A stretch of DNA of 64,000 nucleotides from an uncultured Chloroflexia bacterium (GTDB taxonomy: Bacteria; Chloroflexota; Dormibacteria; Aeolococcales; Aeolococcaceae), in contig CAWJVN010000007.1 of assembly GCA_963846365.1 (NCBI GenBank), positions 400,025 to 464,024 on the forward strand, read 5' to 3'. Shown here piece by piece: positions 1,464-53,056 of the stretch (the stretch's first letter is position 1; every line of letters begins with the position of its first letter). The notes beneath the pieces are model-generated. The model was not told the DNA's origin. It saw only the letters and a program-made list of their open reading frames with translations, and did not search any database. The position numbers and the translations under genes are program-made.

Positions 1464-2297
1464 ATGGCCGACGACATCCTCGACCGGGTGCGCAGCTTCG
1501 CAACCCGCGGTGACGAGCAGCAGCCGGTGGAGGTGGCCGCCGAGCCGGCCGGCACCGAGACGCCCGAGCAAGGAGCGCAGCAGGAGATGGCGATGAGCGA
1601 TGCCCAGGCGGGCGCCGGGGTCCAGGAGGGCGGCGCCGCCCCCACCACCGGCCGCGGAGGCGGCGCGCTCGGCCCGGCGGGGATCATCCGGGCCTGCCCG
1701 ATCCCGTCCGGAGCGGTGATCTTCGGCGAGCTCACCTCGGCCTTCGTCGACGGGGGCCGCCTGGTCCGCTTCCTCGCCGAGCGCCGCCACACCGGCGCGG
1801 TCGTCGACGCCGGTCGCAGCCGGGTGCAGGTCGCCCTCCTCTACGAGGGCGCCGCGGTCGGGCTGGTCGCGGTCGGCGACGGCGCCACCCGCCGGGTCGA
1901 CACCATGACCCTGTCCGCCCCGGGGTCGGCGGACGAGCATCAGCTCACCGTGCTCACCTACCGGCCGGAGATCACCCTGGCGCTGGCCCAGCTGATCAAC
2001 ATGCCGGAGCGCTTCGACCGGATGCACGGCTCCTTCGTCGACCTCCCCGCGCTGCTCTCGTTCCTGCGCCGGGAGCGGGCCAACGGCGCGGTGCGGGTCA
2101 CCACCGGCGAGGACGCGGGGGTCATCCTGCTGCGCGCCGGCGAGGTGCTCGGTGGCTACACCCGGCACCTGCCCGAGCTGGACGACGAGGAGGTCGTGTT
2201 CCCGCTCGCCAAGGCCGCCGACGCCGAGGTCGACGTGTGTGTCGGTGCGCTGTCGCTGCCGCCCCCCTCGATCCCGGTGACGTCGATCCTCGGCTGA
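1464..2297 (+). CDS. DUF4388-like repeat protein (two degenerate DUF4388 modules)
   Basis: Two modules of pattern F.D...LL..L.....G.V......G.ILL..G.V.G.YT (FVDGGRLVRFL...GAVVDAG...; FVDLPALLSFLRRERANGAVRVTTGEDAGVILLRAGEVLGGYT). Same module family as the 987-aa protein at 47079-50042. Confidence 0.55.
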   Translation: MADDILDRVRSFATRGDEQQPVEVAAEPAGTETPEQGAQQEMAMSDAQAGAGVQEGGAAPTTGRGGGALGPAGIIRACPIPSGAVIFGELTSAFVDGGRLVRFLAERRHTGAVVDAGRSRVQVALLYEGAAVGLVAVGDGATRRVDTMTLSAPGSADEHQLTVLTYRPEITLALAQLINMPERFDRMHGSFVDLPALLSFLRRERANGAVRVTTGEDAGVILLRAGEVLGGYTRHLPELDDEEVVFPLAKAADAEVDVCVGALSLPPPSIPVTSILG

Positions 2298-2312
2298 TCC
2301 GGGAGGGCCACG

Positions 2313-2852
2313 GTGCCGCCGCTCCGGCTCCTCGTGGCGCTGGCGACCGCGCTGGTGGCGCTGCTGGCCGCCTGCGGTGGGGGTCCCGCGGGCGGTCCGG
2401 GCAGTCACGACAGTCCCGAGGGAGCGGTGCGCGGCTTCCTCGGCGCGGTGGCTGCCAACGATGTCACCGAGGCGCTGAACTGGATCCCGCCGGCGCAGCG
2501 CACCCAGGCGTCGAACCTCCTCAACGGCAGGGAGGGGGTGAAGGTGTCCTTCCGGGTGGAGCACGTCGACGTCGGCGCCGCCACCCTCGACCGCGACCAT
2601 CCCGACCAGGCCATGGTCCCGGTCAAGGGCCAGGCGTCGGCCTGCGTCAACGGCGGCTCCGGCGACCTCGCCTCGCTGAACACCTGTTTCCCCTTCTCAA
2701 AGTTCGCCCAGACGGCCGGGTCCGACCAGGTCTCCTGCGTGCGCATCGGCGGCCGGTGGTACGTCGACATCGGCTCCGGCAGCGACGCCCCCGCCCCCGA
2801 GCCCTCGCCCGCGGTGAGCCCGGCGGGGCAGTCCCCCAGCCCGCACGGCTGA
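2313..2852 (+). CDS. Lipoprotein (signal peptide plus lipobox LAAC), hypothetical
   Basis: N-terminus MPPLRLLVALATALVALLAACGG; Pro/Ala-rich C-terminal tail. Confidence 0.55.
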   Translation: MPPLRLLVALATALVALLAACGGGPAGGPGSHDSPEGAVRGFLGAVAANDVTEALNWIPPAQRTQASNLLNGREGVKVSFRVEHVDVGAATLDRDHPDQAMVPVKGQASACVNGGSGDLASLNTCFPFSKFAQTAGSDQVSCVRIGGRWYVDIGSGSDAPAPEPSPAVSPAGQSPSPHG

Positions 2853-35541: not shown

Positions 35542-36125
35542 CAGTGCTCGCCCTCCGACTGACGCCGGGCGATCGCGATCGCGTCGCCCAGCCCGGTGCC
35601 GCCGAGGCGGCCGCGCACCGCCATCTCGTCGACCAGGTTGGCCACCCGCCAGAGCACCGTCACCTGCACCACCCGGGTGCCGTCGGGAGCAAGGGCGTTC
35701 TCGGTCACCGCGTGGGACTCGTCGCCGAGGTCGCCCGCCGAGACCGCGCCGGCACCGGGCCTGGCGTCGAGCTCGGCGGCCAGCCGGCGCATCGCATCGT
35801 GGGCGCCGCTCCCGGCACCGAACCCGGCGACGGTGGCGACAACGTCCAGCGGGCCGTTGGCGGTCGCCAGCTCGGGCACCTGGCGCACGTAGTGGGCGCT
35901 GGCGACCCCGGTGATGCCGGCGGCGCGCAGCGCGCTCTGCACCGCGGTCTGGCTCGAGAGCGCGGCGGCGTCGACCCGCTGCGGCCCCGGCGCGGCGATG
36001 AACCCCGCCGCCGGCAGGCGGTCGAGGGGCAGCACATAGCTCACCGGCGCGCCGTGGAGCACCACCGGCGCCGGCGCCGCCGCACCGCCTCCGCATCCCG
36101 CCAGCGCGCTGGCCGCCGCACCCAT
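35541..36125 (-). CDS. Putative lipoprotein (signal peptide [11 protein letters not shown]), hypothetical
   Basis: In-frame ATG (rc 36123-36125) gives a 194-aa product with lipobox LAGC. This is the 3' part of the 497-aa track ORF that also contains jag. Confidence 0.45.
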
Positions 36126-36145
36126 GAGGCCCGCGCAGCGCAGCG

Positions 36146-36971: not shown

Positions 36972-37056
36972 TCTCGCCGTGGACGCCGGCGCGTCCGTTC
37001 GCGTCTCGCTCACGCTCTCTCCACCACCAACCATCCCTCCGCCCGGCGGGGCCGCC

Positions 37057-38097
37057 TCAGCGACCGCGTCCCCGTCGGCGCACCGATCCCTGAGAAGCCC
37101 GCCCCGCTCCGCCCGGCGTCCGGCTGGTCACCGATCGCGGTGCTCGTCCATTGGTCGTGCCCCGGGGAGCCGTCGACGGCTTCGGCGGGGTCGCCGACCC
37201 GGCGCGCGGTGTGACCGGGCGCCTGGCCTGATCCTTGGCCGGCGTCGATCCCGCCGCCAGCGCGCGGCGCGGCGGGGCGCCGGCACCGCCGTCGGCCCGG
37301 TAGCTGAGCGAGGTCACCCGCCCGGCCCCCGGAAACCACGGTGGCACCTTCAGCCCGCCCCACCCGATCACCAGCCACTGCTGGACGATCATCACCAGGC
37401 TCTGGGTCAGCCAGTAGATCCCCAGGCCGACGGGCAGCTGGTACCCGAAGAGCAGGACCATGCCCGGCGCCAGGAAGAGCATGTTCTTGCTCAGGCTGTA
37501 CATCTTCAGCTCCTGCTCGGACATGTCCGCGCGAGGAGGCTGCATCATCATCTTGGCCTGCACGAAGCTGGCCAGGCCGGCGAGGACCGGCAGGATCATC
37601 ACCGACCAGTGGGTGGCGATCCCCTGGCCGAGGAGGTCCTTGGGGCTCTTGCTCACGTTCCCGATCCAGAGGAACCCGAGGCCCTGGTGCAGGTCCTTGG
37701 TGGCCGAGGTGATGCCCCGGTAGAGCCCGTAGAGGATGGGCATCTGGACCAGCAGGGGGAGGCAGCCGGTCAGGTTGCTGAAGGGGGAGATGCCGTGCTC
37801 TCGGTAGAGCTTCATCATCTCCTCGTTCAGCTTCTGGGGCTCCTTCTTGTACTTCTTGCGGAGCTCGGCAAGCTGCGGGGCGACCAGCCGCTGTTCCGCC
37901 TGGATGCGGCGCTGGGTGCGCACCTGCCAGCCGAAGACGGGGAAGAGGCCCATCCGGAGGCAGAGGGTCACCACCACGATGGCGAACCCGAAGGCGCTGC
38001 CCTTGATCAGGGTGAAGTTCAGGAACCAGTGGGTCAGGTGGGTCAGCGCCCACTCGATCGGCGGCCCCAGCGCGCTGAGGATGTCGAAGGGGTTCAC
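37057..38097 (-). CDS. yidC: Membrane protein insertase YidC/Oxa1 (short Gram-positive type)
   Basis: ...LIKGSAFGFAIVVVTLCLRMGLFPV...QMPILYGLYRG...; GTG start overlaps the yidD stop; Pro/Arg-rich C-terminal tail. Confidence 0.85.
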   Translation of the reverse strand: MNPFDILSALGPPIEWALTHLTHWFLNFTLIKGSAFGFAIVVVTLCLRMGLFPVFGWQVRTQRRIQAEQRLVAPQLAELRKKYKKEPQKLNEEMMKLYREHGISPFSNLTGCLPLLVQMPILYGLYRGITSATKDLHQGLGFLWIGNVSKSPKDLLGQGIATHWSVMILPVLAGLASFVQAKMMMQPPRADMSEQELKMYSLSKNMLFLAPGMVLLFGYQLPVGLGIYWLTQSLVMIVQQWLVIGWGGLKVPPWFPGAGRVTSLSYRADGGAGAPPRRALAAGSTPAKDQARRPVTPRAGSATPPKPSTAPRGTTNGRAPRSVTSRTPGGAGRASQGSVRRRGRGR

Positions 38098-38363
38098 CGG
38101 GTGCCTCCCGCCTCGGCATGGCGGCGGCTGCGCCGGCTCACGTACTCCTCGGGGACGGGGTCGTAGCCGCACCCGCCCCAGGGGTTGCACCGGCCGATCC
38201 GCCGCACCGCCATCCACCAGCCCCGCCGCCAGCCGAACCGCTCGATGGCGGTGTAGCCGTACTCGGAGCAGGTGGGCGTGAAGCGGCACCCGCTCATCAG
38301 CGCGAAGAGCGGGCCGAGGGTCACTCGGTAGAGGCGGATGAGAAGGAGGCTCACTCGGGTCAT
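38094..38363 (-). CDS. yidD: Membrane protein insertion efficiency factor YidD
   Basis: LIRLYRVTLGPLFALMSGCRFTPTCSEYGYTAIERFG; canonical. Confidence 0.9.
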   Translation of the reverse strand: MTRVSLLLIRLYRVTLGPLFALMSGCRFTPTCSEYGYTAIERFGWRRGWWMAVRRIGRCNPWGGCGYDPVPEEYVSRRSRRHAEAGGTR

Positions 38364-38848
38364 GGCGATGCGGGGCGGCTCCCCCCAGGATCGACCCGGC
38401 CGGGCCGGGCGCTGCCGCCGCCACCGCGATTGTCCCTCAGGGCGCGCTCCGATGCGGCGCGACCACCCCCCTCGTTCCGAGTCGTGGCCCGGGCGTCACC
38501 GCGCCGCAGCCGCGCCCGGGCGCCGGCGAGACAGGAGTCGAGGTCGGCGGCGAGCAACTCCCACGGGCACGAGGCCGCGGCGACGCCCGCGGACAGGACC
38601 ACGTCGACGCCGGCGAGGGCCTCGATCCGGGGTCGCATCAGGGCGCGGAGCCGGCGGCGAACCCGGTTGCGGACCACCGCGCCGCCCACCGCGCGGGGCA
38701 CCACGAAGCCCACCCGCGCGACGCCGGCGAGGTTGGGGGCGACCTGCACCCGCAGCGGACCGGCGGACGACGAGGCCCGCCGCTCGCGGACGGCGGCGAA
38801 GGCACCGCCGCCGCGGAGGCGATGGCGCCGGCTCACCGCGAGGCTCAC
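38360..38848 (-). CDS. rnpA: RNase P protein component
   Basis: ...[19 protein letters not shown]...VDVVLSA; start (GTG) approximate, overlapping the rpmH stop. Confidence 0.6.
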
Positions 38849-39054
38849 CGAACGGGCGCGGGCGTCAGCAGCTTGCGGCCCTTGCGGCGCCGCGCCTTGA
38901 GCACCTGTCGCCCCCCGGGCGAGGACATCCGGATGCGGAAGCCATGGGTCTTCCGGCGGTAGCGCTTCTTCGGCTGGTACGTGCGCTTGATGGGAGTGCT
39001 CTCCGTCGATCGATGCCGCCCAGGACGGGGGCGCGTACAGCGCCGCTTCCGCAC
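38845..39054 (-). CDS. rpmH: 50S ribosomal protein L34; the conserved core begins at IKRTYQPKK, so the true start may be internal and non-canonical
   Basis: ...[43 protein letters not shown]; GGAGAG lies about 8 nt upstream of the ATC codon for I. Confidence 0.8.
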
Positions 39055-39285
39055 CGGGGGTGGGGCCCCGGGAGTATAGCAGCGACCCGTTGCGAGGGGC
39101 CGTCGAGAGCCACGAGCGCACCCTCCGCGGCAGGCTCGCCTACCGCGCCGGACAACGCGAATCCGGGGCCGGACCGAAACGTTGTGACCCCCCCTGCCCG
39201 TTGTTAGACTTCGCGTTCACTCCACCGGGTTGCCGGCTCCCGAGGTGCACAACAGTTCGATTCGCACCCGGTGGAACAACGCGTT

Positions 39286-39335
39286 TTATCCACGGATGTG
39301 GACAGATTGTGGGAAACACCCACAAGGGTGATGGA
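39286..39335 (+). promoter_or_regulatory. DnaA-box cluster upstream of dnaA (TTATCCACG, TGTGGACAG, TGTGGGAAAC, CCCACAAGG)
   Basis: Read directly: gcgTTTTATCCACGgaTGTGGACAgatTGTGGGAAACaCCCACAagg. Confidence 0.6.
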
Positions 39336-39411
39336 GCACTCACCCGCGCTCTTCTCGACACGCGCGACGGACAGTTCGCCGCCATACACCCGGGGATCAA
39401 GGGGACGTTCC

Positions 39412-40827
39412 GTGGACATCAAGTTCCGGTCTGGGGGAGAGGCGACGGTCCCCGCCGATGCGCAGCAGATCTGGCTGGCCGCGCTCGAGGAGCTGCGCTT
39501 CCAGCTCACCCGTCCCGGGTACGAGACCTGGCTGCGCAACGCGGTCCTGCTCGACTGCCCGGACGGGCGCACCTTCACCATCGGCGTCCCCACCCGGCTG
39601 GCGCGTGACTGGTTGATCGAGCGCTACTCGCCGGTGATCCGCGAGACCCTCTCGGAGCTCACCACCCGCGACTGCGAGGTGATCATCACCGTCGACCCAG
39701 CCTCGACGCCGCCGCCCGACGAGCCCTCCCCGCTCCCCGACGACATCCCGGGCACGATCTCGGACAGCCTCGACGCCCAGACCACCGGGTCGAGCGTGGC
39801 CCGGCTCAACCCCAGCTTCACCTTCTCCGCGTTCGTGGTCGGCAACTCCAGCCGCTTCGCCCACGCCGCCTGCCGCGCCGTGGCCGCGGCGCCGGGCAAG
39901 GCCTACAACCCCCTCTTCCTCTATGGAGGGGTCGGGCTGGGCAAGACCCACCTGATGCACGCGATCGGGCACGCGGTGCGCGAGGGCCACGTGCGCCGGC
40001 CTCCGAAGGTCGCCTACGTGACCTCGGAGAAGTTCATGAACGAGATGATCGCGTCGATCCAGGAGAACCGGACCCACGACTTCCGCACCCGCTACCGCAC
40101 CGTGGACGTCCTCCTCATCGACGACATCCAGTTTCTGGCAGGAAAGGACAGAACTCAGGAGGAGTTCTTCCACACGTTCAACGCGCTGCACGAGGTGCAG
40201 AAGCAGATCGTGATCAGCAGCGACCGGCCTCCGAAGGACATCCCCACCCTCGAGGAGCGACTGAAGAGCCGGTTCGAGTGGGGGCTGATCGCCGACATCC
40301 AGCCGCCCGACTTCGAGACCCGCCTCGCCATCCTCAACAGCAAGCTCGGCGCCAACGGCCGGCTGGTGCCCGACGAGGTCTGCTCCTTCATCGCGCACCG
40401 CATCCAGAAGAACATCCGCGAGCTCGAGGGCGCGCTGATCCGGGTGCTCGCCCACGCCTCGCTGGCGGGGCAGCCGGTGACCCTGGAGAGCGCCACCAGG
40501 ATCCTCCGCGACATCCTGCCGGACGACGCCGGCGCGCCCCCCAGCGTCGACCTCATCCAGGAGACGGTGGCCGCCTACTACAGCATCCCGCTCGAGGAGA
40601 TGAAGGGACGGCGCCGCGACAAGCACATCGTCTTCCCCCGCCAGGTGGCGATGTTCCTGATCCGCGAGGAGACCGCCTCCTCGCTGCCCGCCATCGGCCA
40701 GGCCTTCGGCGGCAAGGACCACACCACCGTCCTCCACGCCTACGAGAAGATCCTCGAGCTGAGCCGGGAGGACGCCCGGCTGCAGAGCGACCTGCGCCAG
40801 ATCCGCGACCGCCTGCATGCGCGCTGA
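39412..40827 (+). CDS. dnaA: Chromosomal replication initiator DnaA
   Basis: GKAYNPLFLYGGVGLGKTHLMHAIG (Walker A), LLIDDIQFLAGK (Walker B), C-terminal domain IV (VAMFLIRE...HTTVLHAYEKI). GTG start in frame; the track ORF begins at 39271. Confidence 0.9.
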   Translation: MDIKFRSGGEATVPADAQQIWLAALEELRFQLTRPGYETWLRNAVLLDCPDGRTFTIGVPTRLARDWLIERYSPVIRETLSELTTRDCEVIITVDPASTPPPDEPSPLPDDIPGTISDSLDAQTTGSSVARLNPSFTFSAFVVGNSSRFAHAACRAVAAAPGKAYNPLFLYGGVGLGKTHLMHAIGHAVREGHVRRPPKVAYVTSEKFMNEMIASIQENRTHDFRTRYRTVDVLLIDDIQFLAGKDRTQEEFFHTFNALHEVQKQIVISSDRPPKDIPTLEERLKSRFEWGLIADIQPPDFETRLAILNSKLGANGRLVPDEVCSFIAHRIQKNIRELEGALIRVLAHASLAGQPVTLESATRILRDILPDDAGAPPSVDLIQETVAAYYSIPLEEMKGRRRDKHIVFPRQVAMFLIREETASSLPAIGQAFGGKDHTTVLHAYEKILELSREDARLQSDLRQIRDRLHAR

Positions 40828-40829
40828 GC

Positions 40830-41086
40830 ACCGGGCGGACGAGGCTGTGGACTCCGGCGGGAGCCAGCCGTGGGAAACCCCCCGCGACCTCCACACTGTG
40901 GGCGGCCACCGGCATCCCGCCCCGCCGTCCCCAGCCTCTCCCGCCCCCCGGGACCGGGGTTCGATCGGGTGGGACGGGGTTATCCCCGCTGTGCACCCCT
41001 CTACTGGGACGACTGAATACATACACCACTCCTGAGAAGGAACCGCCCTGGTGACAACCGCCTCGCCCATCACCGAGAGCACCCTC
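40830..41086 (+). promoter_or_regulatory. Putative oriC: dnaA-dnaN intergenic region with DnaA-box-like motifs and an AT-richer segment
   Basis: TGTGGACTC, CGTGGGAAAC, TGTGGGCGG, GTTATCCCC, TGTGCACCC, then ACTGAATACATACACCACTCCTGAGAAGGA just before dnaN. Confidence 0.5.
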
Positions 41087-42205
41087 ATGAAGTGCACCGT
41101 CTCCCCCACCGCCGTGGCCGCCGCCCTCAGCCTGGTGTCGCGCGCCGTCTCACCCCGGTCGACGCTGCCCATCCTCAGCAACGTCCTGCTGGAGACCACC
41201 GGCGAGGGCCTGCGGCTCACCGCCACCAACCTCGACCTCACGATCACCACCACGGTGCCCGCCGAGGTGGTGCGGGAGGGACGGGTCACCGTGCCCGCCC
41301 GGCTGGTGACGGAGTACGTCGCCTCCCTCGCCGAGGCGCCGTGCACCCTGGAGCTCGACCCCGCAACCCAGGTGCTGCGGATCACCTGCGGCATCCACCG
41401 CACCAACATCCACGGCATCGACGCGGTCGAGTTCCCGCCGCTGCCGGCGCGGGACGCCGAGGCGGCGGTGATCCTCGACGCTCAGACCCTGGACGCGGCG
41501 ATCGGGCAGACGGCGGTGGCGGCGAGCACCGACGAGGCGCGTCCGGTGCTCACCGGGGTGCTGCTCCAGCTCGAGGGCGACGGGGTGACCCTCGCGGCCA
41601 CCGACGGTCACCGGCTGGCGGTGCGGAAGCTGACCCGGCAGGGCGAGGGCGAGGCGCCGGCCACCAGCGTGATCGTGCCGGCGCGGCACCTGGGCGAGGT
41701 CGCCCGTGCGATCACCGCGGCGCGGCCCTCGGTGGAGGTGACGCTGTCGGCGTCGCGCAACCACATCTTCTTCACGATGCGCGACGTGGAGGTGTCCTCC
41801 CGGCTGATCGAGGGCGCGTATCCGAACTACGCCCAGGTCATCCCCGCCTCCCAGAGCACCACCGTGACCCTGTCGTCGGCAACCCTGCTCCGGGAGACCC
41901 GCACCGCCTCGATCCTCGCCAAGGACGCCGCCAACGTGGTGCGCCTGGCCACCGGCGCGGGCACCCTCACCCTCCACGCCCAGACCGCCGAGGTGGGCGA
42001 CGACGAGGCCCCGCTGGCGGCCACGGTGGTCGGTGAGGGGGTGCAGATCGCCTTCAACGCCCGCTACGTGCTCGACGCCCTCGGGGTGATCGACAGCGAG
42101 GAGGTGGCGCTGGGCTTCAACGGACCGCTCTCCCCCGGGGTGATCCGGCCGGTGGGCCGCGACGACTACCTGTACATCGTGATGCCCGTCCGGGTCCCGA
42201 TGTAG
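41087..42205 (+). CDS. dnaN: DNA polymerase III beta sliding clamp
   Basis: MKCTVSPTAVAAALSLVSRAV...STLPILSNVLLET...LRLTATNLDL; three-domain clamp. Confidence 0.9.
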   Translation: MKCTVSPTAVAAALSLVSRAVSPRSTLPILSNVLLETTGEGLRLTATNLDLTITTTVPAEVVREGRVTVPARLVTEYVASLAEAPCTLELDPATQVLRITCGIHRTNIHGIDAVEFPPLPARDAEAAVILDAQTLDAAIGQTAVAASTDEARPVLTGVLLQLEGDGVTLAATDGHRLAVRKLTRQGEGEAPATSVIVPARHLGEVARAITAARPSVEVTLSASRNHIFFTMRDVEVSSRLIEGAYPNYAQVIPASQSTTVTLSSATLLRETRTASILAKDAANVVRLATGAGTLTLHAQTAEVGDDEAPLAATVVGEGVQIAFNARYVLDALGVIDSEEVALGFNGPLSPGVIRPVGRDDYLYIVMPVRVPM

Positions 42206-42217
42206 GGCGGCGGCGGC

Positions 42218-42562
42218 TCAGCGGGTTCCGGGGGTCGGGCCGCCGTCGAGGGCGCGGAAGCGCAGCCGCTTGACCACCTCGCCGCCGAGGTGCTCGTTGA
42301 GCGACGCGATCAGCCGGGGCGAGTCGAGCTGGAGCTGGTGGGCGAGGGCGCCGTGGGCGGTGGCGATGGTGAGCACCCCGCGGTCGAGGCCGGCGGGGCG
42401 GCAGAGCGGGGCGAGGTGGGATCCCACCAGCACGGCGAGGACGTCGTCGAGCTGGGCGTCGCGGACCTTCCGGCTGATCCCCATCCGGCGCAGGGCCGGC
42501 CAGACGATCGCGTCGAGGCGCTGCTCCGCGGGACGCCGGCCGGGCTCGGCCTCCAAGCTCAT
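42218..42562 (-). CDS. dciA: DUF721/DciA-like protein (replicative-helicase operator candidate)
   Basis: About 114 aa, ...VVKRLRFR... C-terminus; conserved position next to recF at the origin. Confidence 0.6.
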   Translation of the reverse strand: MSLEAEPGRRPAEQRLDAIVWPALRRMGISRKVRDAQLDDVLAVLVGSHLAPLCRPAGLDRGVLTIATAHGALAHQLQLDSPRLIASLNEHLGGEVVKRLRFRALDGGPTPGTR

Positions 42563-43743
42563 GCCGCCGACCCGCCCTCGACGGCCACCGCGGGGGCGCC
42601 GTCGACCCGGCCCGCCGCCACGGAGAGGTGGCGCACCCGGTCGCTGCCGAGGGCGAGGCCGGCGGGGTCGGTGGTGGTGAGCACGGTCTGCAGCGAGGTG
42701 CCGGCGCCGAGAGCGCGGAGCAGGCGCTCGCGGCGCAGCGAGTCGAGCTCGCTGAGCACGTCGTCGAGGAGCAGCACCGGCGCGGTGCCGAGCAGGGCGG
42801 TGAGGTGGCGCACCTCGGCGAGCTTGCAGGCGAGCACCAGGCTGCGCTGCTGGCCCTGGCTGGCAGCCGCCCTCGCCGGGCGGCCGTCGAGGAGCACGTC
42901 GACGTCGTCGCGGTGGGGGCCGGCCACGGTGACCCCACGGGCGAGCTCCTCGGCACGGCGTGCCTCCAGCGACCCGGCCAGCCACGCCGAGGCGTCCTCG
43001 GCGGTGGCCGGCGGGTCGCCGTCCAGCCCCTCGGCGCGGTAGCGGAGGTCGAGCTGCTCGCGGCCGTCGCTGATCTCTCCCAGGGCGGCGGCGGCGAGCG
43101 GGGCGAGGGCCTCGACGAGCCGCAGGCGGGCGACCAGCACCGTGCCCGCGGAGCGGGTCAGCTCGGCGGTGAAGCCGGGCAGCGGCGCCGCGCTGGCCTG
43201 GCCCAGGCGCACCTGGCGGAGGAGCGCGTTGCGCTGCTCGAGCACCCGCCGGTAGCGGACCATCTCGGCGGCGGCGCGCGGATCGGTCTGGGCGACGACC
43301 ATGTCGAGGAGGCGGCGCCGTCCCTCCGGGGCGCCCTTGACCAGGAGCAGGTCCTCGGGCCAGAAGAGCACCACCGGGCACACGCCGAGCACCGCCCGGG
43401 CGGCCCGGGGCACGCCGTCGACGGTGACGGTGCGCACCATCGCTCCCTGGCCGGCCGGACGCTGCAGCCGCAGGTCGATGACGGTGGGGCCGTCGGGCCG
43501 CTGCACCAGGGCGCGCACCCGGGCGGCGTCGCTGCCCCAGCGCACCAGCTCGGCGGCGGAGGCGGCGCGCGGTGAGCGGGTGAGCGCGGCGGTGGCGAGG
43601 GCCTCGAGCAGGTTGGTCTTGCCCTGGGCGTTGGGACCGGAGACGACGTTCAGCCCGGGGCCGAGCTCGACGGTCTGGTCGGCGTAGTTGCGGAAGCAGA
43701 AGAGGCGGAGCTCGTCGACGCGGCAGGCGGGGGCTGTGCTCAC
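42559..43743 (-). CDS. recF: DNA replication and repair protein RecF
   Basis: LNVVSGPNAQGKTNLLEAL (Walker A) ... SQGQQRSLVLACKLAE ... LLLDDVLSELD. Confidence 0.9.
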   Translation of the reverse strand: MSTAPACRVDELRLFCFRNYADQTVELGPGLNVVSGPNAQGKTNLLEALATAALTRSPRAASAAELVRWGSDAARVRALVQRPDGPTVIDLRLQRPAGQGAMVRTVTVDGVPRAARAVLGVCPVVLFWPEDLLLVKGAPEGRRRLLDMVVAQTDPRAAAEMVRYRRVLEQRNALLRQVRLGQASAAPLPGFTAELTRSAGTVLVARLRLVEALAPLAAAALGEISDGREQLDLRYRAEGLDGDPPATAEDASAWLAGSLEARRAEELARGVTVAGPHRDDVDVLLDGRPARAAASQGQQRSLVLACKLAEVRHLTALLGTAPVLLLDDVLSELDSLRRERLLRALGAGTSLQTVLTTTDPAGLALGSDRVRHLSVAAGRVDGAPAVAVEGGSAA

Positions 43744-47078: not shown

Positions 47079-50042
47079 CTAGGCGAAGCTGACCGCGAAG
47101 GCCTCGAGGCCCTCGCTGACGAAGCTGGTCAGGGGCGCCGGGTTGCTCCCGTCGGCGTTCTCGATGTAGGCCTGGGTGGTGCCGGACGGGTCGGCGAGCA
47201 GGTAGGCGATCTCGCCGCCGGAGATCGCCGCCGCGATGGTGTCGAGGTCGGACGCCGCCGGGCCGGTGGCGAGGCGGGTGACGTCACCGCCGCGCACCCC
47301 GATGCGCACCAGCCCGGGGGTGTCGCCGGCGGGCCGGTCGATGGCGAGCAGGGTGCTGGCGTCGGCGTAGGCCACCGGGGTCAGGCCGGGGCCGAGGCGG
47401 CGTGGGGTGGGGTCGCCACCGCGCAGCCGGACCACCCAGCCGCCCTCGACCTCGGGGCGGCCCTCGCGGTGCACGGCGAGCTCGCTGCCGTCGCCGTCGA
47501 GCGCCGGCGCGGTGGCCTCGCCGGTGATCCCGGGGACCGGGTAGCGGATGCCCAGCGCGGGATCCGCGAGGTCGACGTGGAGGAGCCCGCCCGGGGAGCG
47601 GACGGGGAGCGCGAGGACGCTGCCGTCGCCGCTCCAGGTGGGCTGGCCGGCGAGCGGGTCACCGGGCGGGAGGACCCGGTCGACGTCGGCGACGGGGTCG
47701 TAGAGGTGCACCGCCTGGGCGGTCCCGTAGGCGAGCAGCCGTCCCGCCGGAGACCAGGCAGGGTGGCTGGCGCCGGTGTGGATGTCGGTGTCGAGCCCGG
47801 TGGCGAGGTCGATGAGGTGGATGTCGGGGGGCGCCCCGGCGACGGTGAGGTCGTGCTCGACCACCGCGATCCGGCGCCCGTCCGGCGACGCGGTGGCCTC
47901 CAGATAGGCGGTCTGGGCCCCCCCTCGAGGCACCTCGCCACAGCTCGCCTGGGCGCAGCGTGCGGCCTGGAGCACGGTTGCCGCGGGCGCGGGCTCGCCG
48001 TCGGCGAGGGCGCCGAGGCCGGTGAGAAGCACCTCGGAGGCGGCCTCGCCGCGGCGGCCGGCGAGCACCAGGGCGTGCTCGCCGCGGCCCAGGCCCCCGG
48101 TCCGGAAGTGCAGCGCCACCGCCTTCTGGACGGGCTGGAGGTGCTCGTTGCGGGCGCCGCCGCCGATGGTCACGGTGTAGCTCGTCGCCGGGTCGAGGAG
48201 CCGGCCGGGGAGCACCAGGAAGCGGCCGTGGTCGCGGCGGTTGCCGACCACCCGGGTGCCCGGCACCGCCGGGGTCAGGTGGATCGCGGCGGCGGTGGCG
48301 GGGCCGTCCATGAGGTCGTTGAACGACACCACCACCGGGCTGTCCACGGGGACGTCGGTGGCGCCGTCGGAGGGGCTGCCGCTCAGCAGCTGCGGGGCCG
48401 GCGCGGTGGTGAGCTCCCAGTGGTGGTCGAGGGAGTTGGCCGCCCCGCCGGTGTCGCGGACCCCCGAGTCGATGTGGAACGTGTACTTGGTGGAGGGGCG
48501 GAAGATGGCGCCGCGGTGCTCGAGCACGAAGGTCGCCGACGCGGGCAGCCAGGTCACCCGGCAGGGGGCCCCGGCGGCGGCGCCGAAGGCGTGCTCGATG
48601 TCGCAGCCGGTGAGCGGAGGCTCCACCCCGAAGCGGCGCGCCACCGAGGCGTGGTCGACGGAGTGGTCGAACACCACCTTGATGGGGGCGTCGGCGGTGA
48701 TGCTGGTGGAGCCGCCGGCGGGGCTGAGCGCGATGATCTGCGGGGGTGCTCCGGCGCAGGCGGGCAGCAGCGCGGCCGCCAGGCCGAGGACGATCCCTCC
48801 GGCGGCGGCTCGCCGCCCGATCCGGGTCTCGGTCAGAGAGGCTTGCGCAGCGCCGACTTCGACGTCGATGCCGGGAGGCGACCCCGCGCCGGCCTTGACC
48901 TCGATGCGCGCCGGGCGCTCCGCCGCCAGCCGGTTCACCGCCAGCGGCGACTCCTGGAGATCCCGCTGGGAGTGGGTGTAGGCGCCGTGGAGCGCGCCCT
49001 TGCGGAGCAGGATGACACCGGTCTCGGTGCCGCCGGCGACCACGACCGAGCCGTCGACCTTCTCCTCCGACAGGTACTCGAGGAGCTGCTCGAAGTTGAC
49101 GAACCGTCCCAGCAGGCCGGTGAACAGCGGCCGGGCGGTGAGCAGCTGGGCGAGCGCGACCACCGTCTCACCGCTCAGCTCGATGACGTCGAGCAGGCCC
49201 TCGCCGCGCTCCATGCGCCGGCGGAGGTGCTGGAACGCGGTCTCGGCCTGGGTGAGGGTGCCGTCGCTGAACAGCGCCTCGAGCACGTGGCCGTCGTGGA
49301 GCAGGAGCACGCCGCTGAAGCCGGGGCCCTCGAGCCGCACGTAGCCGGTGAGCTTGTCGGTGTCGAGGGTGCGCAGCAGCTTGGGGAAGTCGACGAAGGC
49401 GCTCTTCAGGCCCTCGTAGATCGGCTTGCCCGCGGGCAGCGGATAGAGCTCGCCGAGCGGCTTCGCGTTCGGGTTGCCGTAGACCTGCCCCGCGTCCGGC
49501 GAGAGGGTGGGCGGCTGGGCGACGCCCATGGTGGGGATTGCGGTCTCGGTCACCATGGTGTCTCCCGTCGTGATCGGCGGCGGTGGCGGCGGCGGCGAGC
49601 CCCAGGAGGTGGCGGCCGAGGCGACCGGCCTCGCCGGCTCCGCGACCGCGGTGGCCACGCCCGTGGCCCGGTTGTCGGCGACGCCGCCGACGGCCTGGAC
49701 CTCGAGGGGGCGGCCGCTGCCGTTGCTGGGGGCGGCCACCGGCTGGCGGCGCTCGGCCTCGGCGAGGAGCTCGGTGGTGGCGGCCTTGATGGTCTCCTCG
49801 GCGGGCAGCTTCGCCCGCGGGTCGAAGGTGAACTGCCCGTCCTTCCAGGAGAGGGCGGAGATCACCGCCTCCTCTCCCTGGCCGAGATCACCGGCGGCGT
49901 GGAAAAGGTGTCCGAAGAGAAAATAGAGCGAGCAGCTGGCATCCCCGGACGCCACCGAGAGCGTGCCGGTGGCACGCTCCGACTGCATGGCCTCGAGCAA
50001 CGAGGCGAGGCTGTTCTGCGCGAGCGAGCCCTGCGTCTGCAC
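47079..50042 (-). CDS. Large multidomain protein: three DUF4388 modules (cytoplasmic), one TM segment, Ig-like domains and a TolB/PD40-like beta-propeller
   Basis: N-terminus GSLAQNSLASLLEAMQSERATGTLSV...YFLFGHLFHAAGDLGQGEEAVISALSWKDGQFTFD (DUF4388-like). Two further modules (FVDFPKLLRTLDTDKLTGYVRLEG...GVLLLHDGHVLEA; FVNFEQLLEYLSEEKVDGSVVV...GVILLRKGALHGAYT). TM RRAAAGGIVLGLAAALLPACAG; C-terminal PD40-like repeats (SPDGRRIAVV...HPAWSPAGRLLAY...QPTWSGDGSVLAL). Confidence 0.7.
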   Translation of the reverse strand: MQTQGSLAQNSLASLLEAMQSERATGTLSVASGDASCSLYFLFGHLFHAAGDLGQGEEAVISALSWKDGQFTFDPRAKLPAEETIKAATTELLAEAERRQPVAAPSNGSGRPLEVQAVGGVADNRATGVATAVAEPARPVASAATSWGSPPPPPPPITTGDTMVTETAIPTMGVAQPPTLSPDAGQVYGNPNAKPLGELYPLPAGKPIYEGLKSAFVDFPKLLRTLDTDKLTGYVRLEGPGFSGVLLLHDGHVLEALFSDGTLTQAETAFQHLRRRMERGEGLLDVIELSGETVVALAQLLTARPLFTGLLGRFVNFEQLLEYLSEEKVDGSVVVAGGTETGVILLRKGALHGAYTHSQRDLQESPLAVNRLAAERPARIEVKAGAGSPPGIDVEVGAAQASLTETRIGRRAAAGGIVLGLAAALLPACAGAPPQIIALSPAGGSTSITADAPIKVVFDHSVDHASVARRFGVEPPLTGCDIEHAFGAAAGAPCRVTWLPASATFVLEHRGAIFRPSTKYTFHIDSGVRDTGGAANSLDHHWELTTAPAPQLLSGSPSDGATDVPVDSPVVVSFNDLMDGPATAAAIHLTPAVPGTRVVGNRRDHGRFLVLPGRLLDPATSYTVTIGGGARNEHLQPVQKAVALHFRTGGLGRGEHALVLAGRRGEAASEVLLTGLGALADGEPAPAATVLQAARCAQASCGEVPRGGAQTAYLEATASPDGRRIAVVEHDLTVAGAPPDIHLIDLATGLDTDIHTGASHPAWSPAGRLLAYGTAQAVHLYDPVADVDRVLPPGDPLAGQPTWSGDGSVLALPVRSPGGLLHVDLADPALGIRYPVPGITGEATAPALDGDGSELAVHREGRPEVEGGWVVRLRGGDPTPRRLGPGLTPVAYADASTLLAIDRPAGDTPGLVRIGVRGGDVTRLATGPAASDLDTIAAAISGGEIAYLLADPSGTTQAYIENADGSNPAPLTSFVSEGLEAFAVSFA

Positions 50043-50228
50043 CCGGGTCTCCTCCTAGCATGCTGGTCGAGCGGTTACTCCGGGGGGCATCCGCGCGGCT
50101 CAGCCGACCGCGTTGCACCGCGGGCATAGGTCCGGCGACCTGACCTGTGGCAGTGGGCGGCCTATAGTAGCAACGATTCGCGCGCTCACACGCTCGCCGC
50201 CCCCCTCTGACGTCCCCGCGATCATGCC

Positions 50229-51323
50229 GTGACCGCTGCCACATCCGCCAGTTCCGTGTTGCCAGAGCGTCCGCGCGCCCTCGCGCCACCCACCTCGCCG
50301 GCGGACTCCTGGGACCGCGCGCTGGCGGAATGGCCGCGTGCCCACCTGCTCCAGAGCCACGGCTGGGGCGCGGTGCAGGCGGCGACCGGCTGGAGCGTGC
50401 ACCGTCTCCGCGTCGACGCCGGCGCCGGCCGCACCCTCCCGGTCACCGCCCTGTCCGCCGCGGTGGTGCCGGGGGCGCCGCCCCGGGTCTACGTCCCCCG
50501 GGGTCCGGCCTGCGCCCCCGACGACGCCACCGCATGGGCGGGGGCGCTCGCCGCGCTCGAGCAGCTGGCCACCCGTCTGGGAGCGGTGCACGTCACCGTC
50601 GAGCCCAGCGCCTGGAGCGAGGACGTCGTCGAGCTGGAGCGGCGGCTGGGCCCGGGCTGGGCGCCGGTCGACCCGGTGCAGCCCTCCCACACCGCCGTCG
50701 TCGACCTCGCCGGGGGCGAGGCCGCGGTGCTGGCGCGGATGCGCCCGAAGGGCCGCTACAACGTGCGCCTCGCCGAGCGCCGCGGCGTGGTCGTGGAGAC
50801 GCTCACCGACGTCCAGCTCGCCGCCGCCCGGCTGGCGCGGCTCTGCGCCGCCACCGAGCGCCGCCAGGGCATCGTCCTGCCCGGCACCGGCCATCTCCGG
50901 CTGGTGCTCACCGCCCTCCCCGGCGCCTGGGTGCAGATCGCCAGCGTCGACGGCGAGGTCGCGGCCGGCGCCCTGGTGGTGCCCTTCGCCGGCGAGGCGA
51001 TCTACCTCTACGGCGGCTCGTCGTCGGCGCACCGCGAGCGCCAGCCCTCGGCGCTGATGCAGTTCGCGGCGATGCGGGCGGCGCTGGCCGCGGGGTGCAC
51101 CGGCTACGACCTCTGGGGCATCCCCCCGGACGCCGACGCGAGCCATCCCTGGCACGGGCTGCGCCAGTTCAAGCTCGCCCTCGGGGGTCGCGAGATGGTC
51201 GCCGCGGGGGCGTGGCGGCGGCAGCGCCGGCCGCTGGCGGGGCGGATGCTCGAGGCCGCCGAGGCCGCCCGGCTGGCGGCACGGCGGGTGCGCCGGCGGC
51301 TGCACCATGGCGCCGGGGGGTGA
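50229..51323 (+). CDS. FemAB-family aminoacyltransferase-like protein (second copy in window)
   Basis: ...HLLQSHGWGAVQAATGW...AIYLYGGSSSAHRERQPSALMQFAAMRAALAAGCTGYDLWGIP... Confidence 0.75.
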   Translation: MTAATSASSVLPERPRALAPPTSPADSWDRALAEWPRAHLLQSHGWGAVQAATGWSVHRLRVDAGAGRTLPVTALSAAVVPGAPPRVYVPRGPACAPDDATAWAGALAALEQLATRLGAVHVTVEPSAWSEDVVELERRLGPGWAPVDPVQPSHTAVVDLAGGEAAVLARMRPKGRYNVRLAERRGVVVETLTDVQLAAARLARLCAATERRQGIVLPGTGHLRLVLTALPGAWVQIASVDGEVAAGALVVPFAGEAIYLYGGSSSAHRERQPSALMQFAAMRAALAAGCTGYDLWGIPPDADASHPWHGLRQFKLALGGREMVAAGAWRRQRRPLAGRMLEAAEAARLAARRVRRRLHHGAGG

Positions 51324-51362: not shown

Positions 51363-52073
51363 ATGGATGTGAACGGACAGCGCCGGGTCCTCGTCATCGA
51401 CGACGAGGCGCTCATTCGCAAGACCGTCCGGCTCGCCTGCGAGCAGGAGGGCTATGCGGTCCAGGAGGCGGAGACCGGCACCCAGGCGCTCACCGCGCTG
51501 GAGAGCTTCCGCCCCGACATCATCCTGCTCGACCTGATGCTGCCCGACATCAGCGGCTTCGACATCTGCCGCGACATCCGCCGCACCGGCTCGAAGGTGC
51601 CGATCCTCATCCTCAGCGCCAAGACCGAGGAGATCGACGTGGTGGTGGGGCTGGAGATCGGCGCCGACGACTACATCGTCAAGCCGTTCCGGCCCCGGGA
51701 GCTGCTCGCCCGCATCGCCGCCCACCTGCGCAAGGCGCGCCAGGACGAGGAGCGCGGCGACGACGGGCGGATGGTCTTCCGCGACCTGGTCATCGACGTC
51801 AACGAGCGCCGGGTGTTCCGAGGGGGCATCGAGGTCAACCTCACCCACACCGAGTTCGACCTCCTCACCCTGCTCGCCGCCCAGGCGGGCAAGGCGCTCT
51901 CCCGGGAGAAGATCCTCAATGCGGTGTGGGGCTACGACCACCCCATCGAGACCCGGGTCATCGACGTGCACATCCGCAACCTGCGGCGGAAGATCGAGGA
52001 GAATCCGTCCCAGCCGCTGTACATCCTGGCGGTGCCCGGGGTGGGCTACCGGTTCACCGCCACCAAGCCCTGA
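51363..52073 (+). CDS. OmpR-family two-component response regulator
   Basis: VLVIDDEALIRKTV...DIILLDLMLPD...ILILSAKTEEIDVVVGLEIGADDYIVKPF plus winged-helix (YILAVPGVGYRF). Confidence 0.9.
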   Translation: MDVNGQRRVLVIDDEALIRKTVRLACEQEGYAVQEAETGTQALTALESFRPDIILLDLMLPDISGFDICRDIRRTGSKVPILILSAKTEEIDVVVGLEIGADDYIVKPFRPRELLARIAAHLRKARQDEERGDDGRMVFRDLVIDVNERRVFRGGIEVNLTHTEFDLLTLLAAQAGKALSREKILNAVWGYDHPIETRVIDVHIRNLRRKIEENPSQPLYILAVPGVGYRFTATKP

Positions 52074-52120: not shown

Positions 52121-52390
52121 TACATGTCCATTCCGATGCTCCAGCCGCGGCGGGGGGAGATCCGCGCCGCGCCGCCCACGCCCGCCGACCCCTGGGTCTC
52201 GATCACCGTCCTCCTGCTCGGGCTGACGGTGGTGGGGCTGGTCGCCGGCGGGGTGCTGGCCGTCTACGACTGGACCACCCCGAGGGCGGAGCGGCCGCTC
52301 CTCCTCACCGTGCTCGGCATCTTCGTCGTCGCCCTCGGGATCCCGGTGATCACGGCCGCGGCGCGCTGGGCACGCGCGGGTCAGCGGTAG
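52121..52390 (+). CDS. Small membrane protein (2 TM), hypothetical
   Basis: MSIPMLQPRRGEIRAAPPTPADPWVSITVLLLGLTVVGLVAGGVLAVYDW... Confidence 0.35.
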   Translation, partial: YMSIPMLQPRRGEIRAAPPTPADPWVSITVLLLGLTVVGLVAGGVLAVYDWTTPRAERPLLLTVLGIFVVALGIPVITAAARWARAGQR

Positions 52391-52393
52391 CGC

Positions 52394-53056
52394 GTGGCCG
52401 AGCGCGCACGGCGGGGCGAGAGGTCGAACGGGGCCGCCAGCGACCGCCCCGAGCCCTTTCCCAGCTACGAGGAGCTCGCCTCCGACCTCCTCGAGGCCCT
52501 CGACGAGGCGGGGCTGTCGATCGAGGACGTCCGCCACGAGCTCGAGCCCGGCGCCGGCGAGCGCCGCTTCGACTGCACCGTCCGGCTGCAGCCGAGCGAG
52601 CCGCCCTCCCGCTATCACGCCCACCTCAGCTTCGTCTGGGACGCGCTGATGACCTACGTCGCCGCCTATGGGCCGGGGGCCGACTGCGACCTCTACCACG
52701 ACGACGAGGAGCAGGAGGACTGTCCCCACCGGCGGCTCCAGCCCCAGCCCTTCGTCGAGATCGAGGCCGAGTTCGTGCTCGGCGACGGCGGCTACGAGCT
52801 CCAGGAGCTGGGCGAGGTGGCGGGCTGGCTCGACACCGTGCAGACCCTGCTCGGCAAGGCGTTTCCCACCGACGACCGCCCCAGCGTCCACGTCGGGCTC
52901 GCCGCCCTCGGCGGCTCGGTGCTGGTCGAGAAGCTGACCGCCGAGCACTCCTGGCTGATCGACTTCGACGAGCCCCCCGACTTCACCTCGATGGCGGCGC
53001 AGGTGATGGCGGCGCTGCGGCTCGTCCCTCAGCTGGCCGACCGGCTGCCGATGTAG
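52394..53056 (+). CDS. Hypothetical acidic protein
   Basis: 220-aa ORF with codon bias consistent with coding; no recognisable motif. Confidence 0.4.
   Translation: MAERARRGERSNGAASDRPEPFPSYEELASDLLEALDEAGLSIEDVRHELEPGAGERRFDCTVRLQPSEPPSRYHAHLSFVWDALMTYVAAYGPGADCDLYHDDEEQEDCPHRRLQPQPFVEIEAEFVLGDGGYELQELGEVAGWLDTVQTLLGKAFPTDDRPSVHVGLAALGGSVLVEKLTAEHSWLIDFDEPPDFTSMAAQVMAALRLVPQLADRLPM

What the first reader, a model, noticed from the sequence alone, without database searches (positions are those of the whole stretch)
47079..50042. 987-aa transmembrane protein with three cytoplasmic DUF4388 modules and an extracytoplasmic Ig-like plus TolB-like beta-propeller
The N-terminal segment matches the DUF4388 pattern closely (G.L...L..LL......TG.L.......YF..G...HA.....GEEAV...L.W.DG.F.F), followed by two more degenerate copies. 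A single TM helix follows, then repeated Ig-like segments and PD40/TolB-like repeats. DUF4388 has no established function. Linking it through the membrane to a periplasm-facing propeller suggests a trans-envelope sensing or scaffolding role. A second, soluble two-module DUF4388 protein is encoded at 1464-2297 next to a lipoprotein. The 987-aa gene is divergent from a FemAB-family gene, so a cell-envelope role is plausible.
Basis: partly seen in the sequence, partly recalled or inferred. Interest (0 to 1): 0.65.

Follow-up and report, generated by a model that had tools for sequence, protein, structure and literature searches.

The report
Two genes joined by one base
The 987-residue "transmembrane protein" is really two neighbouring genes, a cytoplasmic PATAN-domain protein and a cell-surface lipoprotein, read as one because this sequence has a single extra base just before the first gene's stop codon; all 27 related loci examined keep them separate, so the proposed membrane-spanning architecture is not an evolved design.

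Summary
It has three PATAN (DUF4388) modules, one hydrophobic segment, two Big_5 Ig-like domains and a TolB-like beta-propeller.

It is nevertheless a run-together of two genes. One extra base (GAAG instead of GAG, window 48858/48859) lies eight codons before the PATAN gene's conserved stop (TGA 48835-48833). It shifts the frame into the downstream lipoprotein gene.

All 27 related Candidatus Dormibacterota loci have the stop and hold the two genes in different frames. This includes the closest genome, at 98% and 94% protein identity. No fused form appears among hundreds of homologues of either half. The "TM helix" is the lipoprotein's signal peptide with a lipobox (LLPAC).

The fused protein is recorded from one 1.83-Mb contig only. 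I cannot tell a consensus error from a very recent mutation. I estimate about 60:40 in favour of error.

What is real is a conserved pair, PATAN gene then lipoprotein gene, set among cell-envelope genes near oriC. One oddity remains: most relatives lack a canonical start codon for the lipoprotein gene. Interest is low.

The parts
47079..50042 (-). The 987-codon ORF as it stands in the window. It is a read-through of two genes.
   Evidence: It is held in the protein collection as P0347, from a single 1.83-Mb contig.
48833..50042 (-). PATAN (DUF4388/PatA_N) gene. The product is about 402 aa once the extra base is removed, and it then ends ...GIDVESALRKPL-stop as in the relatives.
   Evidence: 98% identical (388/395) to the 402-aa HEY2704243.1 up to residue 395. 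The alignments show the conserved tail and stop.
49746..50033 (-). PATAN module 1 (residues 4-99)
   Evidence: Pfam PF14332, 67.5 bits, E=1.4e-18. pLDDT is above 93.
49497..49733 (-). Disordered proline-rich linker (residues 104-182). Its length varies among relatives.
   Evidence: pLDDT is below 50. PATAN homologues range from 370 to 608 aa.
49137..49445 (-). PATAN module 2 (residues 200-302)
   Evidence: Pfam scores 21.8 bits alone and 30.7 bits together with module 3. The AlphaFold model is confident here.
48873..49136 (-). PATAN-like module 3 (residues 303-390)
   Evidence: It has no Pfam hit alone. hhalign against module 2 gives E=2.9e-12, probability 97.6%. It has the same secondary-structure order.
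48858..48859 (-). The extra base. The window reads GTCGAAGTCGG, where relatives read GTCGAGTCGG, GTCGACTCGG or GTCGAATCGG.
   Evidence: DNA alignments A1 and A2. Sequence read.
48833..48835 (-). The PATAN gene's conserved TGA stop. In the window it is out of frame and is bypassed.
48756..48836 (-). Lipoprotein signal peptide: (L)TETRIGRRAAAGGIVLGLAAALLPA-C429. It includes the lipobox, and a CTG that overlaps the old TGA stop. No canonical start codon is present.
   Evidence: PGAP annotated the orthologue HEY2704242.1 from a non-canonical ATC start.
48429..48749 (-). Big_5 Ig-like domain 1 (residues 432-538)
   Evidence: Pfam 40.2 bits. The model is confident. It resembles the Ig domains of LdtMt2.
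48099..48398 (-). Big_5 Ig-like domain 2 (residues 549-648)
   Evidence: Pfam 46.8 bits. The model is confident.
47082..48074 (-). TolB-like beta-propeller (residues about 657-987)
   Evidence: AlphaFold pLDDT is about 90 or higher. The top Foldseek PDB hits are TolB, E=5e-13. A profile search of PDB sequences finds TolB at E about 6e-11. PD40 scores 23.5 bits on the fragment.
50211..51323 (+). Divergent FemAB-like gene, a conserved neighbour
   Evidence: Pfam FemAB 97.2 bits. Syntenic in L001, L027, L029 and L030. Absent in L028.
51363..52073 (+). OmpR-type response regulator, a conserved neighbour
   Evidence: Pfam Response_reg plus Trans_reg_C. Syntenic in all contexts examined.
1464..2297 (+). 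Paralogous two-module PATAN-like gene
   Evidence: tblastn gives 35% identity to modules 2-3, E about 1e-20. Pfam gives only E=0.004.
2311..2852 (+). Small lipoprotein gene directly downstream of the paralogue. It has a GTG start, a GGGAGGG Shine-Dalgarno motif and the lipobox LLAAC.

Best explanation
**What it is**
The window holds two adjacent, co-oriented genes of a Candidatus Dormibacterota genome.
1. A cytoplasmic protein of about 402 aa. It has three PATAN (DUF4388/PatA_N) modules and a disordered proline-rich linker.
2. A lipoprotein of about 580 aa. It has a signal peptide with a lipobox, two Big_5 Ig-like domains and a TolB-like beta-propeller.

**Why they read as one (shown)**
- One extra base (an A at 48858/48859) sits eight codons before the PATAN gene's stop. 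It shifts the reading frame, so the conserved TGA is bypassed.
- The shifted frame happens to be the frame of the lipoprotein gene. That produces the 987-codon ORF.

**Origin of the extra base (inferred)**
- It is either a consensus error of a long-read metagenome assembly or a very recent strain-specific mutation. My estimate is about 60:40 in favour of error.
- Either way, the fused architecture is not an evolved, conserved design.

**How the real unit probably works (inferred, not tested)**
- The biological unit is a conserved two-gene operon.
- The lipoprotein gene follows the PATAN stop by a few nucleotides. It has no Shine-Dalgarno motif and usually no canonical start codon. Its translation is therefore probably coupled to termination of the PATAN ORF.
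- The lipoprotein would be anchored on the outer face of the cytoplasmic membrane. There its propeller and Ig-like domains would bind a cell-envelope ligand or partner.
- The PATAN protein would act in the cytoplasm as a protein-protein adaptor at a membrane-associated machine. Characterised PATAN domains do this at the type IV pilus motor and at the divisome.
- Both genes would be co-regulated with the neighbouring wall and glycolipid genes: FemAB-like, GT4, an MGDG-synthase-like (UgtP-type) glycosyltransferase and an OmpR-type regulator.
For: **Two genes in every relative**
- All 27 related loci end the PATAN gene with a stop 74-170 nt before the lipobox Cys codon, and they hold the two genes in different frames. 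Lipoprotein identity in these loci ranges from 38% to 94%. Only the window is in frame.
- The single-base insertion is visible in alignments A1 and A2.
- The displaced tail SALRKPL-stop is still encoded intact in the other frame.
- The closest genome has separate proteins: HEY2704243.1 (402 aa, 98% identical to residues 1-395) and HEY2704242.1 (600 aa, 94% identical to residues 395-987).

**No fused form elsewhere**
- Full-length lipoprotein homologues among 1.84 billion representative proteins are 528-613 aa.
- The best 120 PATAN homologues are stand-alone proteins no longer than 472 aa; the full-length ones are about 350-470 aa.
- The fused protein is on record from one contig only, of 1.83 Mb.

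**Nature of the two products**
- Signal peptide and lipobox are shown.
- Structures and folds are shown.
- The neighbourhood is conserved.
- PATAN literature: bioRxiv 10.1101/2021.06.11.447907 and PMC7380572.
Against: **Against an assembly error**
- 17 other syntenic genes between 41 and 56 kb align at full length in a single frame. The assembly is therefore not generally riddled with indels.
- AA versus A is not a long homopolymer.
- The window, like most relatives, has no canonical start codon of its own for the lipoprotein. A real fusion would therefore not destroy an obvious independent start.

**Limits of the functional model**
- It rests on domain analogies and gene neighbourhood only. 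No member of either family from this phylum has been studied.
Confidence: 0.88

Rival explanations
1. A genuine, functional fused protein. In this strain the PATAN protein is anchored by an internal signal-anchor and is covalently linked to the extracytoplasmic Ig/propeller part, forming a trans-membrane sensor or scaffold.
For: - The ORF is open and codes well throughout.
- The hydrophobic segment scores as a TM span (Kyte-Doolittle 2.0).
- No other frameshift occurs in 17 neighbouring genes.
- The lipoprotein gene lacks a canonical start of its own.
- The two genes are always adjacent, so a functional link is plausible.
Against: - The fusion is unique to one contig. All 27 related loci and the 98%/94% identical genome are split.
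- No fused homologue appears in very large searches.
- The 22 nt between the extra base and the bypassed stop, and the stop itself, are identical to those of the closest relatives. The conserved C-terminal tail SALRKPL is lost from the product but remains intact out of frame. The change is therefore very recent or an artefact.
- The hydrophobic core is short and is followed by a lipobox, as in a cleavable signal peptide.
Confidence: 0.07
2. Recoding: the relatives naturally make a PATAN-lipoprotein fusion by programmed ribosomal frameshifting near the end of the PATAN ORF. This would explain why the lipoprotein ORF usually lacks a start codon. The window would then be a hard-wired, in-frame version.
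For: - About 20 of the first 24 loci tabulated have no ATG, GTG or TTG between the PATAN stop and the conserved signal peptide.
- Gene callers therefore truncate the product to 520-545 aa, or use an ATC start.
- The lipoprotein frame is open for at least 45 codons upstream in every locus.
Against: - The frame relation is -1 in some lineages and +1 in others.
- By eye I found no X-XXY-YYZ slippery heptamer and no prfB-like +1 site in the last codons.
- L002/L003, L008/L020, L027, L029 and L030 have ordinary GTG or TTG starts. L029 and L030 have a stop in the lipoprotein frame at or one codon before that start.
- Open alternative frames are expected at 75% G+C.
- Rfam finds nothing in the window.
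Confidence: 0.04

Closest known systems
PATAN-domain proteins (Pfam PF14332 DUF4388/PatA_N), e.g. Synechocystis PixE/PixG and Anabaena PatA
   Same: The N-terminal module matches the family model strongly. Stand-alone and multi-module PATAN proteins are common in environmental bacteria. Characterised PATAN domains are cytoplasmic protein-interaction modules that act at membrane-associated machines: PilB1/PilC and ZipN/SepF.
   Different: It has no REC domain, so it is not a PatA-type response regulator. It has three tandem modules with a disordered proline-rich linker. There is no evidence here for pilus or divisome partners. No solved structure is available for comparison.
TolB (Tol-Pal system periplasmic beta-propeller protein)
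   Same: The C-terminal propeller is the best structural match (Foldseek E=5e-13). It also matches at profile level.
   Different: - The TolB equivalog model scores 15.9 bits against a cut-off of 343.
- The TolB N-terminal alpha/beta domain is replaced by two Big_5 Ig-like domains.
- It is a lipoprotein rather than a soluble periplasmic protein.
- No tol or pal genes were identified among the ORFs I scanned.
- Whether Dormibacterota have an outer membrane was not established.
LpqB of the actinobacterial MtrAB-LpqB system
   Same: By analogy only, from my own knowledge: a beta-propeller lipoprotein encoded beside an OmpR-family two-component regulator, and implicated in cell-wall and division homeostasis.
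   Different: Pfam reported no LpqB family (Gmad1 or GerMN) at E up to 1. The partner gene here is a PATAN protein, not a histidine kinase.
Ig-like (BIg) domains A/B of the L,D-transpeptidase LdtMt2
   Same: The two Big_5 domains superpose on the N-terminal Ig-like domains of LdtMt2 (Foldseek E about 5e-10).
   Different: There is no YkuD catalytic domain. The similarity is limited to generic Ig-like spacer domains.

Membership tests
PATAN / DUF4388 (PF14332) | Score above the Pfam gathering threshold | tested here: met
   86.2 bits against a cut-off of 25 for the whole ORF. Module 1 alone scores 67.5 bits.
   - Module 2 scores 21.8 bits alone and 30.7 bits in the two-module fragment.
- Module 3 has no Pfam hit but is homologous to module 2 (hhalign E=2.9e-12).
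- Module 1 against modules 2 and 3 gives only E about 1e-3.
- All three share the same secondary-structure order in the model.
PatA-type response regulator | C-terminal REC receiver domain fused to PATAN | tested here: not met
   There is no Response_reg hit in the ORF. Homologues carry PF14332 only.
Big_5 bacterial Ig-like domain (PF13205) | Score above the gathering threshold | tested here: met
   80.5 bits against 23.6, in two stretches.
PD40 / WD40-like beta-propeller repeat (PF07676) | Score above the gathering threshold | tested here: inconclusive
   14.2 bits for the whole ORF (below the 20.9 cut-off). 23.5 bits for the C-terminal fragment, with no individually significant stretch. The propeller is supported at fold and profile level.
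TolB (NCBIfam TIGR02800 equivalog) | Full-length match above the curated cut-off, including the N-terminal TolA-binding domain | tested here: not met
   15.9 bits against 343.15. Ig-like domains occupy the N-terminal part.
Bacterial lipoprotein | N-terminal signal peptide ending in a lipobox [LVI][ASTVIP][GAS]C with an invariant Cys | tested here: met
   RR n-region, hydrophobic core and LLPA-C429 in the window. Relatives have LPGC, LTGC, LSAC, LSGC, LAGC, LTAC or LAAC at the same place. Lipidation itself cannot be tested here.
Single bitopic transmembrane protein (the finding's architecture) | One gene, conserved as one reading frame in relatives | tested here: not met
   All 27 related loci are split by a stop and a frame change. 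No fused homologue was found.
Programmed ribosomal frameshift site | Conserved slippery sequence and one constant frame relation | tested here: not met
   The frame relation is -1 or +1 depending on lineage. No slippery motif was seen by eye. Rfam gave no hit.

The most novel reading that the evidence does not exclude
In most Dormibacterota the lipoprotein ORF has a conserved signal peptide but no canonical start codon and no Shine-Dalgarno motif. Its synthesis may therefore depend wholly on ribosomes finishing the PATAN ORF. This could work by termination-reinitiation at a near-cognate codon, such as the CUG that overlaps the UGA stop. Less likely, it could work by low-level frameshifting that makes a PATAN-lipoprotein fusion. 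On that reading, the window's in-frame fusion would be a natural hard-wired variant of an obligatorily coupled cytoplasm-to-envelope gene pair.
Probability: 0.1. Interest if true: 0.55.

Novelty: not a real feature. Interest (0 to 1): 0.15.

Why it matters
- The result removes a false lead. A seemingly new trans-envelope architecture, PATAN modules wired through the membrane to a TolB-like propeller, is the product of one extra base.
- It shows how such a fusion spreads into databases. The fused protein already bridges PATAN proteins and lipoproteins into one 90%-identity cluster.
- What remains is modest but real. A PATAN gene followed by a lipoprotein gene is conserved across an uncultured soil phylum, among cell-envelope genes next to oriC, and a second PATAN-like/lipoprotein pair lies in the same window.
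- That pairing hints that PATAN proteins act with envelope proteins outside the cyanobacterial pilus context.
- The frequent absence of a canonical start codon for the lipoprotein gene is a small, testable puzzle about translation initiation in this phylum.

Tried and rejected
1. **The long ORF on the opposite strand (47469-50129, +).** Its translation is Arg/Gly/Ala-rich nonsense typical of high G+C. Rejected.
2. **A generally error-ridden assembly.** 17 syntenic genes align at full length in one frame. An apparent sufC/sufB overlap turned out to be normal. No support was found.
3. **Programmed frameshifting.** The frame relations are inconsistent and there is no slippery site. Rfam is empty. 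Rejected as unlikely.
4. **Independent assemblies carrying the fused form.**
   - An exact look-up by gene position found nothing.
   - The cluster look-up found it on one contig only.
   - The short cluster members P0353 and P0354 are N-terminal fragments and do not span the junction.
5. **A solved PATAN structure.** Foldseek against the PDB gave only insignificant sliding-clamp matches. A profile search of PDB sequences gave none.
7. **Envelope type of Dormibacterota.** One paper was checked and says nothing about it.
8. **My initial guess of Myxococcota**, made from the G+C content and the presence of DUF4388. It was wrong; the relatives are Dormibacterota.
Full report
**1. Is the observation in the sequence?**

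Yes. The window has about 74% G+C, so long spurious ORFs are common. The minus-strand ORF 47079-50042 has the expected coding signature: G+C of 0.75/0.54/0.96 at codon positions 1/2/3. It also has a protein-like translation. The overlapping plus-strand ORF translates to Arg/Gly-rich nonsense.

Pfam finds PF14332 (DUF4388, renamed PatA_N in newer releases) at 86.2 bits and Big_5 at 80.5 bits. PD40 reaches only 14.2 bits. The NCBIfam TolB model scores 15.9 bits against a cut-off of 343. A Kyte-Doolittle scan finds exactly one hydrophobic segment, at residues about 411-435.

**2. The ORF is two genes joined by one base.**

A search with the whole protein returned two kinds of homologue and no fused one:
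- proteins of 565-581 aa that cover only the C-terminal 57% at 80% identity;
- PATAN proteins that cover only the N-terminal 40%.

In the syntenic contigs of the 80% relatives, a 398-aa PatA_N gene is followed by a separate Big_5 gene of 565-581 aa.

DNA alignment of the junction shows one extra base in the window. It reads GACGTCGAAGTCGG, where the relatives read GACGTCG-AGTCGG. The site is window 48858/48859, eight codons before the relatives' stop. In the relatives the PATAN protein ends ...GIDVESALRKPL-TGA.

In the window the frame shifts after ...GIDVE395. The TGA at 48835-48833 is then bypassed, and translation runs on as VGAAQASLTETRIGRRAAAGGIVLGLAAALLPAC..., which is the frame of the downstream gene. 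The displaced tail SALRKPL-stop is still encoded intact in the other frame.

I then collected more loci:
- 14 from species-representative genomes, all Candidatus Dormibacterota or MAGs labelled Chloroflexota;
- 9 from metagenomes;
- 4 more by exact protein look-up.

In all 27 loci that span the junction, the PATAN gene ends in a stop 74-170 nt before the lipobox Cys codon, and the two genes lie in different frames. Only the window is in frame.

The closest genome on record has two proteins:
- HEY2704243.1, 402 aa, 98% identical to window residues 1-395;
- HEY2704242.1, 600 aa, 94% identical to residues 395-987.

An exhaustive HMMER search of 1.84 billion representative proteins with the C-terminal half found full-length homologues of 528-613 aa only. 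The best 120 homologues of the PATAN half are stand-alone proteins no longer than 472 aa; the full-length ones are about 350-470 aa.

The fused 987-aa protein is on record (P0347) from a single contig of 1.83 Mb. That length suggests a long-read assembly, which is my inference.

**3. Error or mutation?**

I cannot decide this from the sequence.

For an error:
- The fusion is unique to one contig.
- The 22 nt between the extra base and the bypassed stop, and the stop itself, are identical to those of the closest relatives.
- A tail that is conserved from 41% to 98% identity is lost from the product.
- The fused precursor would carry a 400-residue domain in front of a cleavable signal peptide.

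Against an error:
- 17 other syntenic genes in the window align at full length in one frame.
- AA versus A is not a long homopolymer.

I estimate about 60:40 in favour of error. Either way, the architecture is not an evolved one.

**4. What the two genes are.**

PATAN protein:
- AlphaFold with 42 homologues gives mean pLDDT 83.9.
- It shows three confident modules (residues 1-100, 200-302 and 303-390). All have the order beta-alpha-beta-beta-beta-alpha-beta. A disordered proline-rich linker spans residues 104-182.
- Pfam recognises module 1 strongly and module 2 weakly.
- Module 3 is homologous to module 2 (hhalign E=2.9e-12). Module 1 aligns to both in register at E about 1e-3.
- No solved structure resembles it.

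Lipoprotein:
- AlphaFold gives mean pLDDT 90.7 and pTM 0.81. The model has two Ig-like domains followed by a beta-propeller.
- The best PDB matches of the propeller are TolB proteins (E=5e-13). The Ig-like domains match those of LdtMt2.
- A sequence profile also finds TolB blades at E about 1e-10.
- The hydrophobic segment is an N-terminal signal peptide. It has an RR n-region, a short core and a lipobox. The lipobox is LLPAC here and LPGC, LTGC, LSGC, LAGC, LTAC or LAAC in relatives.

**5. Context.**

The window is the replication-origin region. It carries parA, jag, yidC, dnaA, dnaN, dciA and recF.

The gene pair is flanked as follows:
- on one side, divergently, by a FemAB-like gene and an OmpR-type response regulator;
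- on the other side by a HAD hydrolase, a GT4 glycosyltransferase and an MGDG-synthase-like glycosyltransferase.

The core of this arrangement (HPPK, OmpR-type regulator, FemAB-like gene, the pair, GT4 and the MGDG-synthase-like gene) is kept in relatives at 70% identity. It is also kept in distant ones, where the PATAN protein is only about 39% identical. One lineage lacks the FemAB, HAD and GT4 genes.

A paralogous two-module PATAN-like gene at 1464-2297 is also followed directly by a lipoprotein gene. That gene is unrelated and small, with a GTG start at 2311, a good Shine-Dalgarno motif and the lipobox LLAAC.

**6. How it most likely works (inferred).**

The unit is a two-gene operon and not one polypeptide. 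Characterised PATAN domains are cytoplasmic interaction modules that dock onto membrane-associated machines:
- PilB1 and PilC in Synechocystis (bioRxiv 10.1101/2021.06.11.447907);
- ZipN and SepF in Anabaena (PMC7380572).

The lipoprotein would sit on the outer face of the cytoplasmic membrane and would bind an envelope component through its propeller. The conserved neighbours point to wall or glycolipid biogenesis, or its regulation.

A direct trans-membrane link between the two products would need a third, membrane-spanning partner. None was identified.

**7. An unexplained detail.**

In about 20 of the first 24 loci tabulated there is no ATG, GTG or TTG in the lipoprotein frame between the PATAN stop and the conserved signal peptide. 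Gene callers therefore predict truncated products of 520-545 aa without a signal peptide. PGAP used an ATC start.

A CTG overlaps the TGA stop (CTCTGA or ATCTGA) in every locus where the frame relation is -1, and other loci have a CTG just before the RR. L010-L013, L021 and L022 have no CTG upstream of the RR. Other relatives have ordinary GTG, TTG or ATG starts.

The frame relation differs between lineages and no slippery site is evident, so I consider programmed frameshifting unlikely. Termination-reinitiation at a near-cognate codon is the simplest idea, but it is untested.

**8. Comparison, novelty and verdict.**

- The N-terminal gene is a member of the PATAN family but is not a PatA-type response regulator, because it has no REC domain.
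- The C-terminal gene is a Big_5 lipoprotein with a TolB-like propeller. It is not TolB.
- It is only analogous to the actinobacterial lipoprotein LpqB. Pfam reported no LpqB family.
- The claimed 987-aa bitopic protein is not a real, conserved feature.

Interest is low (0.15). The residual interest lies in the conserved PATAN-lipoprotein pairing and in the start-codon puzzle.

Noticed in passing
window 48756-48836(-); loci L001, L004-L007, L009-L019, L021, L022, L024: The lipoprotein gene has a conserved signal peptide, but most relatives have no canonical start codon (ATG/GTG/TTG) between the PATAN stop and that peptide. A CTG overlaps the TGA stop in all loci with a -1 frame relation. L010-L013, L021 and L022 have no CTG upstream of the RR. 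Gene callers consequently truncate the product or use an ATC start.
   Followed up: partly
window 1464-2297(+) and 2311-2852(+): A second pair of a PATAN-like gene followed by a lipoprotein gene. The first gene is a two-module paralogue, 35% identical to modules 2-3. A small unrelated lipoprotein gene follows 13 nt later, with a GTG start, a GGGAGGG Shine-Dalgarno motif and the lipobox LLAAC.
   Followed up: partly
window 31014-43743: The window covers the chromosomal origin region: parA, jag, yidC, dnaA (39208-40827), dnaN (41051-42202), dciA and recF. The PATAN/lipoprotein pair lies about 3 kb beyond recF, and this placement is kept in relatives.
   Followed up: no
window 28522-29457(-): A second FemAB-like paralogue lies inside a longer ORF (28411-30354). 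It is 34-36% identical to the FemAB-like gene next to the PATAN gene.
   Followed up: no
window 52124-52384(+) and 52394-53053(+): Two genes without any Pfam match (about 88 aa and 220 aa) lie between the OmpR-type regulator and the HPPK/DHPS genes. They are conserved in that position in the four Dormibacterota contexts examined (L001, L027, L028 and the window), the larger one at up to 97% identity.
   Followed up: no
protein collection, cluster of P0176: The fused 987-aa protein bridges unrelated PATAN proteins (401-402 aa) and lipoproteins (531-600 aa) into a single 90%-identity cluster. This is a database side effect of the one-base fusion.
   Followed up: yes
window about 48800-48815(-) and the same place in relatives: The n-region of the lipoprotein signal peptide almost always contains two consecutive arginines (RR). 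The protein could therefore be exported by the Tat pathway. This was not tested.
   Followed up: no
window 2983-4260(+) and 4261-5625(+): A protein with PRC-barrel, MgtE_N and CBS domains, but no MgtE membrane domain, is encoded directly upstream of an Nramp-family metal transporter.
   Followed up: no
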